64,000 bases of DNA, from NCBI GenBank assembly GCA_045399315.1, contig DAYVGO010000008.1:13194-77193 (forward strand), in the 5' to 3' direction. Positions 48,001 to 51,000 of the stretch are shown here, piece after piece. How positions within the stretch are numbered: the stretch's first letter is position 1; every line of letters begins with the position of its first letter. Source of the DNA: Arsenophonus sp. (GTDB lineage: Bacteria > Pseudomonadota > Gammaproteobacteria > Enterobacterales > Enterobacteriaceae). Made by a program: the position numbers.

Positions 48001-51000
48001 GCTCCACATTTTTCCTTTGGCATCACAGTGGGCGGTGAATACATGTTGTTGTGGGCTTAATGCGGCAATATCCGCGGTTAATTGACCCTGGAGATATTTT
48101 TCGGCATCAACACCGGTTGCTGTGATAAAACTCCAGTCATTAAGTAACATTAACGTTAATGGTAATTGTTGGTCGGTTTTGTAAGTCGCTGGTATAAATT
48201 TATTTAGGCTTATCATGTGATCATCCGCTCGTAACCTGAATAAGAGTAGTCATAATGGTAAAATAGCTAGCTGACAAAGCAAGTAATATTATCCATTATT
48301 GGCTAACAGAATTAATATCGAATAATTTATCTATAATAAGTTTTTTATTAGTGATTAGTAGTAGTTTTTACAAAAATGTTACTTAAATCATTCCGATATT
48401 GATAAGAATTTGCTACGCTAAATTCTGATATGGAATTGAAAATTATTTCCAAAAGTTTTTAAGGTTATTTTATCGTATGGATATCAATAATAAACCCAGG
48501 ATCCACTGGGCATGTCGCAGAGGAATGCGTGAGTTGGACATCGCCATTATGCCTTTTTTTGAGTATGAATATGATTCACTCACAGAGGATGAGAAATGTC
48601 TGTTTGTTCGTTTACTAGAGTGTACAGATCCTGATTTGTTCAACTGGTTGATGAATCATGGACGTCCTGATGATGATGGTCTTTATCAAATGATTCGATT
48701 GATACAGAGTAGAAATAAACAACGTGGTTCTTTGGAAATTTAATATTAATGTTTCGTGGCTGACACAGCTTTTTTCAACGGGAGTACATGTAGGAATTGG
48801 CTTGTTAGTTTTCTTTTCATCTTGGCCGCCAAATAATCTGGTCACTTGGTTGATAGCGACCTTATTGATTGTGGCGAGTTGGGTAAGGAGTCAAAAAAAT
48901 ATAAGCCGTTGTAAAGGAAGTTTAGTTTTACTTAATGGTAATAAGATACAGTGGAAGAAAAGCGAATGGCTGATTGTTAAAAAACCTTGGTTTTGTTTAT
49001 TTGGTATAAAACTCACTCTTCGTTCATTACAATGTAATAAGCGGATTAAATTATGGATTGCTTCGGACAGTATACCTGAAGAGGAGTGGCGAAATTTAAA
49101 TCAATTGCTGTTGCAGTACCCTGATATTTGATATGAAATAGAAGCCTTATAATAAGGCTTCTATTTCATTTAATATTTGAATACACCACTGTTTAATTCT
49201 TCCATCTGTTTGTTCGAATTGGTTGACTTCATCAAGCGCTAACCCGACAAACTGGCTACCATCAGTTGTTAATGGTTTAAGACTGCTAAAAGTATATCCT
49301 GTTGTTGGCCAAAAACCGACAAATTTAACTTGCATCAGTAATAGCTGTTCATAAAGCATGCCTAGTGCATCTAGAAACCAGTTACTGTAATCAATTTGAT
49401 CGCCTAAGCCGTATAGAGACACAATTTTGCAGGCTAGATTTAACGAACAGAATTCATCCCAAATTGTGAGCCAGTCTTCTTGTAGTTCGCCAAAATCCCA
49501 GGTAGGAATACCTAAGATTAAGATTTCATAATTTTCCATTAATTGCGGCGAAATATCTTTAATATTATGTAAATTAACTAAGTCTTCACCTAGATTATAC
49601 TGGATTTTCTCTGCAACCATTTCGGTATAACAGGTACTAGAACCATAAAAAAGACCTATTTTCATTTTTGTAACTTGCTGTCATTTTGCTAGTAATAATG
49701 TACCATTATAGCAGAGAAACATTAAAAAAATATTATAATTCAGTTGATTAAGAGTAATTGTCCGGTAGCATTATTAGTGTTATTTTTTCATTAATGGCAA
49801 TTGAACAGGGCGGGTTTTTTGATTTGCCTCATATTATTATCAATAAAAATAGAAAATAATTATTTTTTAACCTATCCTCTAAGTAGTCCTAACAATTTCT
49901 ACGCCTTATTTGTTCATTTTATTCTTGTTAAATAGAGAGTTTCCCTGGTGTTGTGTTTGATATGTTTGCCAGTTTAAACTGGCTTTTTTATGGCATTTTC
50001 TATTTTTTATAATATTTAATATTATTATTTTTAACCAATGCGATAAAAAACCATGTCTCAATTTATTTAATAGCTAAAACTTGAGATCTGGTTTTAAGTT
50101 AATTTGCTAAGAATTTGTTAAATGACAATATATTTCATTACCAGTAATTAATTTTGGTTGCTAGTAGATACTACTAGTTTATTGTAAACGTCTATGTAGT
50201 GTATTAATTGCTTGTCACATATTAGGCAATGGGCCAATATTTATTTTATTACTAGACTGATGGTATCCTTGTGGTGTGCCGGTTTCAATTAAAAGTGAAC
50301 ACATGTCTTTCGGTTTAAGCACATCACCAATATACTTTTTATACTATGATTGGATCGCTACCACAAGAGAAGCAACGATCGGTGTAGCAGATGATGTCCC
50401 CGAGAAAGTATGGGTATAATTATTATGCTCACCCTTATCGTAGAGATCGTTATAACCGGTTGTGACAACAGTTAGACACCAGCCTTGCACATAATGCTGC
50501 TATAAATTGTGAAATCAGTTGGTATCAGGTGTTTTTTATCGCTCGCACCAACCCGGATGGCACTATTATCACCATCACCATTATGGATGGTTTCTATATT
50601 CATTGTATACTTTATGTTCTAAATCTTCAGCACTATTGCCAGCTGCCATAATGATAATAATACCAGCATAGGTGGCCTCTTTTGTGATATCCCAAACTGT
50701 TTGTTGATAATCGGCTGGGACATATTTATTACGAGGACCCATCGATTGTAATTCATAGATAAATACGTCTCCTGCCCTTAAGTATTTTAATGCCTTAGCA
50801 ATTCTATTAACACGTCCTGCTGGAGCTTCTGAAACATTATAAAAAGTATCTGCCCCATGCACTAATCCTTTTATATCAAATCACATATTTTTGGCATACA
50901 TTATTCCGGCAACCACGGTACCATGTTCATTTTTCAGCGGATATTCTGGTGACAGATTAATAAAACTTTTTCTTCTTAAATTAACATGGTTAAAATCAAA

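What the first reader, a model, noticed from the sequence alone, without database searches (positions are those of the whole stretch)
49860..49989. Orphan ArcZ-seed small RNA, intact inside a decaying virulence island and away from arcB
Seen: in the noncoding gap between fldB and the dead subtilase, the plus strand reads ...TAGAGAG|TTTCCCTGGTGTTG-TGTTTGATATGTTT-GCCAGTTTAAACTGGC-TTTTTT. This is a GC-rich 14-mer in AT-rich DNA followed by a terminator that works only on the plus strand, where no protein gene lies upstream. Known: processed ArcZ begins UUUCCCUGGUGUUG after RNase E cleavage at an RN|WUU site, is roughly 55 nt with a terminator and U tail for Hfq, normally lies beside arcB, and in Photorhabdus/Xenorhabdus controls symbiosis metabolites through hexA. 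Here the cleavage context (AG|UUU), seed, length (about 50 nt) and 3' architecture all fit, but the sequence after the seed is unrelated. A specific 14-mer is expected by chance well under once per 64 kb. Inference: a sibling or relocated ArcZ-like sRNA that would reach the ArcZ regulon from a different promoter. Alternatively, the minus strand carries a perfect anti-ArcZ site (CAACACCAGGGAAA) about 275 nt upstream of fldB, acting as a target or sponge.
Basis: partly seen in the sequence, partly recalled or inferred. Interest (0 to 1): 0.82.

Follow-up and report, generated by a model that had tools for sequence, protein, structure and literature searches.

The report
ArcZ-seed small RNA gene of Arsenophonus
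Next to fldB, this insect/tick symbiont (Arsenophonus) keeps a short non-coding gene that carries the exact target-recognition sequence of the regulatory RNA ArcZ, but it lies in a different place and has an otherwise unrelated body, so standard RNA-family searches miss it.

Summary
TTTCCCTGGTGTTG (49940-49953, +) is identical to the seed of E. coli ArcZ. It follows an RN|WUU RNase E motif and is followed 14 nt later by a plus-strand-only terminator (49968-49989). No exact copy appeared in 100 shuffles.

The window is from an Arsenophonus genome. The same element sits about 255-277 nt upstream of fldB in every Arsenophonus/Phlomobacter locus fetched. It is more conserved (0.92-0.94) than fldB 4-fold sites (0.72) or the neighbouring non-coding DNA (0.80). 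It has no conserved ORF. It stays intact where fldB (Bemisia symbiont) or the neighbouring subtilase and GH39 genes (this window) are pseudogenes. Providencia and Xenorhabdus have fldB directly beside xerD and lack it.

It fails the other ArcZ tests:
- It is not beside arcB or elbB.
- Rfam ArcZ gives no hit even at E<=10, although E. coli arcZ scores 120.8 bits.
- It has no detectable similarity to ArcZ outside the seed.

Best reading: a processed, probably Hfq-dependent, trans-acting sRNA that reads ArcZ targets.

Not resolved:
- Whether it is the clade's only ArcZ or a sibling of a canonical copy at arcB, because the Arsenophonus arcB locus could not be fetched.
- The transcribed strand, because the available RNA data are unstranded.

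The parts
49940..49953 (+). ArcZ-identical seed TTTCCCTGGTGTTG
   Evidence: Identical to E. coli arcZ. Exact in 5 Arsenophonus genomes; Phlomobacter has one C>T.
49938..49942 (+). RNase E-type RN|WUU motif (AG|UUU); predicted cleavage between 49939 and 49940
   Evidence: Read from the sequence. The motif definition and the ArcZ cleavage site are from PMC11331407. Position 49939, the 'N' of the motif, is the only variable base here among relatives: G, T or C. Cleavage itself is inferred.
49940..49989 (+). Predicted processed sRNA, 50 nt: seed, U-rich linker, terminator, U6
   Evidence: Fold of -9.4 kcal/mol, z = -2.1. Mean pairwise identity 0.94 in 6 genomes, against 0.72 at fldB 4-fold sites. 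The ends are inferred, not measured.
49968..49989 (+). Rho-independent terminator: hairpin 49968-49983 plus T6 (T6-T9 in relatives)
   Evidence: (found on the + strand only). There is no covariation. Phlomobacter breaks one pair and interrupts the T-run.
49899..49905 (+). Invariant CUACGCC, predicted to pair with the seed's GGUGU(UG) in the unprocessed RNA, occluding the seed
   Evidence: RNAalifold and MFE folds. This is analogous to the 5' part covering UGGUG in E. coli ArcZ (concept in PMC11331407). It is a prediction only.
49850..49878 (+). Candidate promoter P2: TAGAAA (49850-49855), 17 nt, TATCCT (49873-49878). It would give a primary transcript of about 105 nt starting near 49885.
   Evidence: Read from the sequence. 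It is conserved in alignment A1 but was not picked up by the consensus scan. Inference.
49732..49739 (.). ATTATAAT, a self-complementary perfect -10 box on both strands. It is the likely fldB promoter (- strand) and an alternative far-upstream promoter for the + strand RNA (about 245 nt primary transcript).
   Evidence: It lies in the most conserved 30 nt of the spacer (identity 0.98). Inference.
49147..49665 (-). fldB (flavodoxin FldB), a core gene transcribed divergently from the element
50045..50095 (.). Remains of a separate A-run/hairpin/T-run (bidirectional-type) terminator behind the subtilase gene. It is perfect in relatives and has 2 stem mismatches here.
   Evidence: Alignment A1, columns about 386-433. 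Read from the sequence; inference.
50182..51444 (-). S8 subtilase pseudogene (three frames), convergent with the element
   Evidence: It is intact (437 aa) in A. nasoniae and A. nilaparvatae.
51959..53692 (-). GH39-like glycoside hydrolase pseudogene (three frames)
54225..55136 (+). xerD, a core gene. It is directly adjacent to fldB in Providencia and Xenorhabdus.

Best explanation
The region from about 49885 (or 49746) to 49989 on the + strand is a stand-alone small-RNA gene, conserved across the Arsenophonus/Phlomobacter clade.

Proposed mechanism: a primary transcript is made in which an invariant upstream CUACGCC covers the seed. RNase E cuts at AG|UUU (49939|49940). This releases a roughly 50-nt RNA whose 5' end is the ArcZ seed UUUCCCUGGUGUUG, followed by a U-rich linker and a terminator with a U-tail, which is the usual Hfq-binding module. 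This RNA base-pairs with mRNAs that carry the ArcZ target site (rpoS-leader type and others), so it acts as the clade's ArcZ equivalent.

The gene lies at the fldB-proximal edge of a roughly 4.5-kb insertion (sRNA, S8 subtilase, GH39) between fldB and xerD. It is not next to arcB.

Shown: the sequence, its conservation, the absence of a conserved ORF, the terminator orientation and the synteny.
Inferred: transcription strand, promoter, processing, Hfq dependence and targets.
For: 1. The 14/14 identity to the E. coli ArcZ seed was not matched by any of 100 shuffles.
2. The same element is at the same position in L002, L003/L088, L018, L005/L006 and L004. It is also present in DNA assemblies X27-X30.
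3. Purifying selection: mean pairwise identity is 0.92 over 49885-49989 and 0.94 over 49940-49989. The comparisons are 0.72 at fldB 4-fold sites, 0.81 at fldB third positions and 0.80 in the adjacent non-coding 49990-50140. Conservation drops right after the T-run.
4. It is non-coding: 1- and 2-nt indels and T-run length changes break every ORF.
5. It is independent of its neighbours. It is intact where fldB has in-frame stops (L005) and where the subtilase and GH39 genes are pseudogenes (this window).
6. Only the + strand has a terminator. The subtilase gene has its own terminator about 60 nt further on.
7. RN|WUU is kept, and the only variable base is the N.
8. The predicted precursor occludes the seed, as in E. 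coli ArcZ.
9. Metatranscriptome contigs cover 49717-49961 (X6), 49735-49902 (X10) and up to 49934 (X5). None covers 49962-50074. DNA assemblies run straight through that stretch.
Against: - No stranded or small-RNA data exist. The RNA contigs are unstranded, of low depth, could include DNA or an fldB leader, and start upstream of the nearer candidate promoter.
- In one A. nasoniae-like RNA run the element is not covered, while the subtilase 3' region is.
- There is no covariation support, because there is too little variation.
- The consensus scan found no sigma-70 promoter in front of it.
- No ArcA-box-like site lies nearby at up to 3 mismatches. This consensus was recalled from memory, and such matches occur at chance level across the window.
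- The whole spacer is fairly conserved (85%), so part of the signal could come from promoter or regulatory DNA.
- Phlomobacter carries changes in the seed, the stem and the U-tail.
- The Rfam ArcZ model and a model built from this element do not find each other's sequences.
- No target could be checked. The rpoS and arcB loci of Arsenophonus were not retrievable, and no significant pairing was found with 48 in-window genes or the neighbouring genes.
Confidence: 0.68

Rival explanations
1. Sub-version A: it is the clade's only ArcZ. The ancestral arcZ was moved from the arcB side to the fldB-xerD gap in a rearranged symbiont genome. Freed from its overlap with arcB, it kept only the seed, the cleavage site and a terminator.
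For: arcZ is convergent with arcB in all studied Enterobacterales, including Proteus, Providencia, Photorhabdus and Xenorhabdus (PMC11331407; bioRxiv 2020.08.24.265355), so the ancestor had one. The window shows large-scale rearrangement and gene decay. The architecture is the same as ArcZ. sRNA bodies are known to turn over faster than seeds (general knowledge).
Against: The part of ArcZ after the seed (GGCGCAGUAUUCGCGCACCCCGG) is upper-case, meaning highly conserved, in the Rfam consensus, and it is completely replaced here. There is no residual similarity to E. coli ArcZ in the 5' or 3' parts (p = 0.24 and 0.30). No arcB or elbB remnant lies nearby. The arcB locus of Arsenophonus was not examined.
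Confidence: 0.35
2. Sub-version B: it is a sibling. A canonical arcZ still lies at arcB, and this second gene shares only the seed. It would feed the ArcZ regulon from a different promoter, possibly outside ArcA control.
For: The location is inside an accessory insertion that Providencia and Xenorhabdus lack. The body and promoter region are entirely different. No ArcA-box-like site was found (a weak test).
Against: No second seed copy was found in anything fetched (window plus about 90 loci), but none of these includes arcB. Paralogous subtilase loci in A. apicola, A. phytopathogenicus and Proteus do not carry the element, so it is not a module that travels with the island gene. It is absent from the plasmid, phage and viral collections.
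Confidence: 0.28
3. Convergent origin: an unrelated sRNA evolved the same seed because it pairs with the same conserved mRNA site (the rpoS leader). By comparison, E. coli DsrA carries the closely similar AUUUCCUGGUGU (sequence recalled from memory).
For: Only the seed is shared. The best whole-length Rfam match on the + strand is to RprA, another rpoS activator, not to ArcZ (20.3 bits, E = 3.3, not significant).
Against: The 14/14 identity comes together with the same RN|WUU context, the same position of the seed at the processed 5' end and the same distance to the terminator as ArcZ. That is more than target complementarity requires. The Arsenophonus rpoS leader was not available to test the idea.
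Confidence: 0.1
4. Minus-strand reading: CAACACCAGGGAAA is an ArcZ target or sponge site in a long fldB leader, or in read-through from the subtilase gene.
For: The RNA contigs are unstranded, and in X5 one contig joins fldB to 49934. In an A. nasoniae-like run the subtilase 3' region is covered up to the hairpin.
Against: There is no minus-strand terminator, and there is a + strand U-tail. A perfect TATAAT for fldB lies at 49732-49737, about 200 nt closer to the gene. The element is 98% identical where fldB is a pseudogene. In X6 and X10 the fldB contig is separate from the spacer contig. The X34 contig stops before the hairpin and does not reach the seed.
Confidence: 0.07
5. It is not an RNA gene at all: a conserved regulatory DNA block (shared promoter or operator region) with a chance resemblance to ArcZ.
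For: The whole fldB-subtilase spacer is fairly conserved (85%). No promoter was found by the scan.
Against: None of 100 shuffles contained the 14-mer. The conservation peak coincides with seed plus terminator and falls immediately after the T-run. The terminator geometry is also unexplained by this reading.
Confidence: 0.05

Closest known systems
ArcZ (SraH/RyhA; Rfam RF00081) of Enterobacterales
   Same: Identical 14-nt seed, placed directly after an RN|WUU RNase E motif. The predicted processed form is about 50 nt (ArcZ: 55-60 nt) and begins with the seed. It has a Rho-independent terminator with a U-tail. The 5' part is predicted to mask the seed in the precursor.
   Different: It is not convergent with arcB and not next to elbB; it lies between fldB and an S8 peptidase gene. 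It lacks the conserved GGCGCAGUAUUCGCGCA hairpin and has a different terminator. There is no similarity in the 5' part. The Rfam model gives no hit, and no ArcA box was found.
DsrA and RprA (the other rpoS-activating Hfq sRNAs)
   Same: All carry a U/C-rich stretch complementary to the same rpoS leader segment. DsrA has AUUUCCUGGUGU (recalled from memory). RprA is also processed to a 3' fragment of about 50 nt. There is a weak whole-length Rfam RprA alignment.
   Different: The seed matches ArcZ exactly (CCC, ...GUUG), not DsrA or RprA. The RprA score of 20.3 bits is far below the gathering score of 70. DsrA was not reported at E<=10.
Sibling sRNAs with shared seeds (OmrA/OmrB, Qrr1-5, and similar)
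   Same: If a canonical arcZ co-exists, this would be a seed-sharing pair under different promoters.
   Different: Known siblings are usually tandem or clearly alignable along their length. Here only the seed would be shared and the loci are unlinked. Co-existence is untested.

Membership tests
ArcZ (RF00081) | Conserved seed UUUCCCUGGUGUUG(GCGCA) directly 3' of the cleavage site | tested here: met
   14/14 identical to E. coli arcZ. The next 5 nt (GCGCA of the CCCUGGUGUUGGCGCA motif; PMC11331407) differ: UGUUU.
ArcZ (RF00081) | RNase E RN|WUU site immediately before the seed | tested here: met
   The sequence motif AG|UUU is present, with the N position variable in relatives. Actual cleavage was not tested.
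ArcZ (RF00081) | Gene lies downstream of and convergent with arcB, divergent from elbB | tested here: not met
   The flanks are fldB and an S8 subtilase. tblastn with ArcB and ElbB finds nothing in the window or the Arsenophonus loci.
ArcZ (RF00081) | Scores above the Rfam gathering threshold (66 bits) | tested here: not met
   No ArcZ hit at the gathering score, nor at E<=10 on 601 nt or 151 nt, nor in 4 Arsenophonus/Phlomobacter loci. Positive control: E. coli arcZ scores 120.8 bits.
ArcZ (RF00081) | Internal hairpin GGU-GCGC-AGUAUUC-GCGC-ACC after the seed | tested here: not met
   The model structure is shown. Here the linker UGUUUGAUAUGUUU forms no equivalent helix.
ArcZ (RF00081) | Sequence similarity of the 5' and 3' parts to ArcZ | tested here: not met
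   Local alignment against shuffles gives p = 0.24 (5' part) and 0.30 (3' part) versus E. coli. Model R1 of this element does not find E. coli arcZ.
ArcZ (RF00081) | Rho-independent terminator with U-tail (Hfq 3' module) | tested here: met
ArcZ (RF00081) | ArcA-P operator in the promoter | tested here: inconclusive
   No match to GTTAATTAAATGTTA (consensus recalled from memory) at up to 3 mismatches within 49700-49900. The promoter itself is not defined.
ArcZ (RF00081) | Expressed, processed to a form of about 50-56 nt, Hfq-bound | not testable with these tools
   Only unstranded Logan contigs from metatranscriptomes were available.
ArcZ (RF00081) | Pairs with the rpoS leader and other ArcZ targets | not tested
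   The Arsenophonus rpoS, arcB, flhD and lrhA loci could not be fetched. The in-window target scan was not significant.
RprA (RF00034) | Scores above the Rfam gathering threshold (70 bits) | tested here: not met
   20.3 bits, E = 3.3

The most novel reading that the evidence does not exclude
Arsenophonus keeps a canonical arcZ at arcB and, in addition, this unlinked gene that shares nothing with it but the seed and the processing site. It would be a seed-only sibling, born with or beside an accessory insertion, that drives the ArcZ regulon from a promoter outside ArcAB control and outlives the island genes around it.
Probability: 0.28. Interest if true: 0.65.

Novelty: new variant of a known kind. 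Interest (0 to 1): 0.45.

Why it matters
ArcZ is described as having a fixed genomic address (beside arcB) and a highly conserved processed form throughout Enterobacterales. Here a whole symbiont clade keeps the seed, the cleavage context and the terminator under purifying selection, while the address and the rest of the RNA are different.

If the RNA is confirmed, three things follow:
- It is a clear case in which the seed plus the processing site is the conserved unit of an sRNA and the body is replaceable.
- Covariance-model surveys reporting 'loss' of core sRNAs in endosymbionts can be wrong for this reason.
- It gives Arsenophonus, which includes insect reproductive parasites, tick and whitefly symbionts and plant pathogens, a testable post-transcriptional regulator. 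The RNA survives genome decay that kills its neighbours.

Tried and rejected
1. Finding the Arsenophonus arcB locus, to see whether a canonical arcZ lies there.
- The search for homologous proteins with E. coli ArcB returned only E. coli and Shigella.
- The 50%-identity representative search gave P0241, which turned out to be from Photobacterium damselae.
- The last protein search therefore returned only Vibrionaceae.
- Read laying and the look-up of sequencing runs refuse E. coli loci and loci from the look-up of encoding contigs.

2. Metagenome scan with the 21-mer: two hits, both unrelated chance matches.

3. Other collections: the viral contigs hold neither the Arsenophonus form nor the canonical ArcZ 30-mer. 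The plasmid and phage collections gave no match. E. coli genomes gave no blastn match to the 136-nt region.

4. Does the sRNA travel with the subtilase gene? Paralogous loci in A. apicola, Ca. A. phytopathogenicus and Proteus lack the seed. Two further look-ups found no record.

5. RNA evidence: only unstranded Logan contigs were available. Runs X25, X26, X31 and X32 laid nothing on the window.

6. Local targets: no pairing better than shuffled seeds with the 5' regions of the subtilase, GH39, fldB and xerD genes, or of 48 in-window genes.

7. ArcA box: no match near the element, and matches across the window are at chance level.

8. Literature: no paper mentions Arsenophonus together with ArcZ. 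The arcB and arcA searches were uninformative. The endosymbiont ncRNA survey PMC4779614 does not mention ArcZ.
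Full report
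**1. What is there**

The plus strand at 49933-49989 reads TAGAGAG TTTCCCTGGTGTTG TGTTTGATATGTTT GCCAGTTTAAACTGGC TTTTTT.

- The 14-mer at 49940-49953 is the only exact copy in the window, and none of 100 dinucleotide-preserving shuffles contained one. With up to two mismatches, 0.39 matches are expected.
- It is identical to nt 66-79 of the annotated arcZ of E. coli K-12.
- The ArcZ review PMC11331407 gives the RNase E site as RN|WUU, followed by the conserved CCCUGGUGUUGGCGCA, with a processed form of 55-60 nt. Here the context is AG|UUU.
- The consensus scan finds the hairpin at 49968-49983 with its T-run on the plus strand, and no minus-strand terminator in 49600-50300.
- The 50-nt stretch folds into a weak 5' hairpin plus the terminator (-9.4 kcal/mol, z = -2.1).

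**2. Whose genome and what surrounds it**

- fldB (49147-49665, -), ygfZ and cptA lie on one side. xerD, dsbC and recJ lie on the other.
- A scan of species-representative genomes with FldB puts the window in Arsenophonus. FldB is 96% identical to the Arsenophonus endosymbiont of Dermacentor nuttalli and about 90% to A. nasoniae and Ca. A. nilaparvatae.
- In Providencia and Xenorhabdus, fldB and xerD are direct, divergent neighbours with about 100 nt between them.
- In Arsenophonus an insertion lies between them. In A. nasoniae and A. nilaparvatae it holds an intact 437-aa S8 subtilase gene and a GH39-like gene.
- In the window both genes are pseudogenes spread over three frames: 50182-51444 and 51959-53692.
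- The element sits at the fldB-proximal edge of this insertion, convergent with the subtilase gene. That gene has its own A-run/hairpin/T-run terminator about 60 nt beyond the element (alignment A1).

**3. Conservation**

- The exact 14-mer is at the same position, 253-277 nt upstream of fldB on the opposite strand, in five Arsenophonus genomes. Ca. Phlomobacter fragariae has it with one C>T change.
- It is absent from the fldB loci of Xenorhabdus, Providencia, Pantoea and Erwinia.
- Mean pairwise identity over 15 genome pairs:

| Region | Identity |
|---|---|
| 49940-49989 (predicted processed RNA) | 0.94 |
| 49885-49989 | 0.92 |
| fldB, all sites | 0.90 |
| fldB third positions | 0.81 |
| Non-coding stretch just downstream (49990-50140) | 0.80 |
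| fldB 4-fold degenerate sites | 0.72 |

- The sliding profile peaks at 0.94-0.98 over 49913-49982 and falls right after the T-run.
- One- and two-nucleotide indels upstream of the seed, and T-run length differences, break every ORF on either strand. The constraint is therefore not on a protein.
- In the Bemisia symbiont, fldB has in-frame stop codons, yet the processed part is 98% identical to the window.
- In the window the island genes are dead while the element is intact. It is thus maintained independently of both neighbours.
- The only variable base around the junction is 49939 (G, T or C), which is the 'N' of RN|WUU.
- DNA assemblies of further A. nasoniae-like strains show the same arrangement.

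**4. Predicted precursor**

Both the alignment fold and the single-sequence fold pair an invariant CUACGCC (49899-49905) with the seed's GGUGU. In E. coli ArcZ the 5' part likewise covers UGGUG, and the review proposes that cleavage frees the seed.

There is no covariation, because the sequences hardly vary. The structure is therefore a prediction.

The promoter is not defined. There are two candidates:
- TAGAAA-17-TATCCT (49850-49878), which would give an RNA of about 105 nt.
- The self-complementary ATTATAAT at 49732-49739. This is a perfect -10 box on both strands, lies in the most conserved 30 nt of the spacer, and most likely serves fldB.

The consensus scan reported neither candidate.

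**5. Is it ArcZ?**

Only in part.
- The Rfam ArcZ model scores E. coli arcZ at 120.8 bits. It finds nothing in the window at the gathering score, nothing at E<=10 on 601 or 151 nt, and nothing in four other Arsenophonus/Phlomobacter loci.
- The Rfam consensus shows the post-seed hairpin GGCGCAGUAUUCGCGCACC as highly conserved. Here it is replaced by UGUUUGAUAUGUUU, which forms no such helix.
- A covariance model built from the six Arsenophonus-clade sequences does not find E. coli arcZ.
- Local alignments of the 5' and 3' parts to E. coli ArcZ are no better than shuffles (p = 0.24 and 0.30).
- tblastn with ArcB and ElbB finds no remnant in the window or in the Arsenophonus loci.
- The best whole-length Rfam match on the plus strand is RprA at 20.3 bits (E = 3.3), which is not significant.

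What is shared with ArcZ is the seed, the cleavage context, the size of the processed form and the 3' module. What is not shared is the address, the body and the family-model score.

**6. RNA evidence**

Only Logan contigs of metatranscriptomes (tick and insect) were available. They have no strand information.
- Contigs cover window 49717-49961 (X6, depth 8.4, separate from the fldB contig at 3.5), 49735-49902 (X10) and 49186-49934 (X5).
- In all three runs nothing covers 49962-50074, and coverage resumes in the subtilase region.
- DNA assemblies run through this stretch without a break, so the gap is probably a real RNA boundary at the two convergent terminators.
- This fits a plus-strand RNA ending at the terminator, but it does not exclude a minus-strand start there.
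- In an A. nasoniae-like run the subtilase 3' region is covered up to the hairpin and the element is not.
- Run X25 is indexed as holding half of the sampled words of the element, but nothing could be laid. This is unexplained.

**7. What could not be settled**

Whether Arsenophonus also has a canonical arcZ at arcB. All routes to that locus failed. The Arsenophonus rpoS leader and other ArcZ targets could not be examined either. Pairing scans against genes in the window and against the neighbouring genes were not better than shuffled seeds.

**8. Verdict**

The most likely reading (about 0.7) is a genus-wide, selectively maintained, processed sRNA that uses the ArcZ seed.

Within that reading I cannot choose between three origins:
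- A relocated, remodelled sole ortholog (about 0.35).
- A seed-sharing sibling of a canonical copy (about 0.28).
- Convergence on the same target site (about 0.1).

The minus-strand sponge or leader reading and the 'not an RNA' reading are each unlikely.

No paper in the searched library links ArcZ with Arsenophonus, and the standard family model misses the element. I rate it a new variant of a known kind, of moderate interest.

Noticed in passing
window 38373-38574 (-): 6S RNA (ssrS), Rfam 110.4 bits. It is the only Rfam family in the window that reaches its gathering score.
   Followed up: no
window 27522-28370; 15285-15950; 16469-16897: More gene decay outside the island. There is only a 282-aa N-terminal piece of acnB, plus fragments of hofC and hofB/gspE-type genes.
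   Followed up: no
window 1-29000 versus 37000-58000: Genes of the E. coli 2-3 min region (ftsW..ftsZ, lpxC, secA, mutT, zapD, coaE, nadC, aceEF-lpd, acnB) are joined to 62-65 min genes (ssrS, ygfZ, cptA, fldB, xerD, dsbC, recJ). The symbiont chromosome is rearranged.
   Followed up: no
L005 1576-2079 and L006 1606-2109 (Arsenophonus of Bemisia tabaci): The fldB-sRNA locus occurs on two contigs of one assembly. In L005 fldB has in-frame stop codons while the sRNA is intact.
   Followed up: partly
window 63489-63502: The + strand of ORF 62877-63521 reads CAACACCAGGTGAA, a 12/14 complement of the seed. It is compatible with chance (0.39 expected at up to 2 mismatches).
   Followed up: no
window 49732-49739: ATTATAAT is its own reverse complement, giving a perfect -10 box on both strands. 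It lies in the most conserved 30 nt of the fldB-sRNA spacer (identity 0.98).
   Followed up: partly
window 49891-49993 (+): A weak whole-length alignment to Rfam RprA (20.3 bits, E = 3.3). The linker UUGUGUUUGAUAUGUUUGCC loosely resembles RprA's UUGCUGUGUGUAGUCUUUGCC.
   Followed up: partly
window 49865-49995; run X25: An RNA-type run is indexed as holding 5 of 10 sampled 31-mers of the element, but none of its contigs could be laid on the window. Unexplained.
   Followed up: partly
L004 9675-9790 (Ca. Phlomobacter fragariae): The Phlomobacter copy has a C>T change in the seed, an A>T change that breaks one terminator pair, and a G interrupting the T-run. This may be early decay or tolerated drift.
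   Followed up: no
window 48477-49131 (+): An sdhE (Sdh5)/cptA pair lies directly downstream of fldB, as in A. nasoniae. CptA matches Pfam at E = 1e-39.
   Followed up: no
L083, L091 (A. apicola, Ca. A. phytopathogenicus): A paralogous S8 subtilase (about 52% identity) sits in a different, conserved neighbourhood (AMP-binding enzyme, epimerase, cation efflux, ecotin). In L091 it is near type III secretion genes.
   Followed up: no
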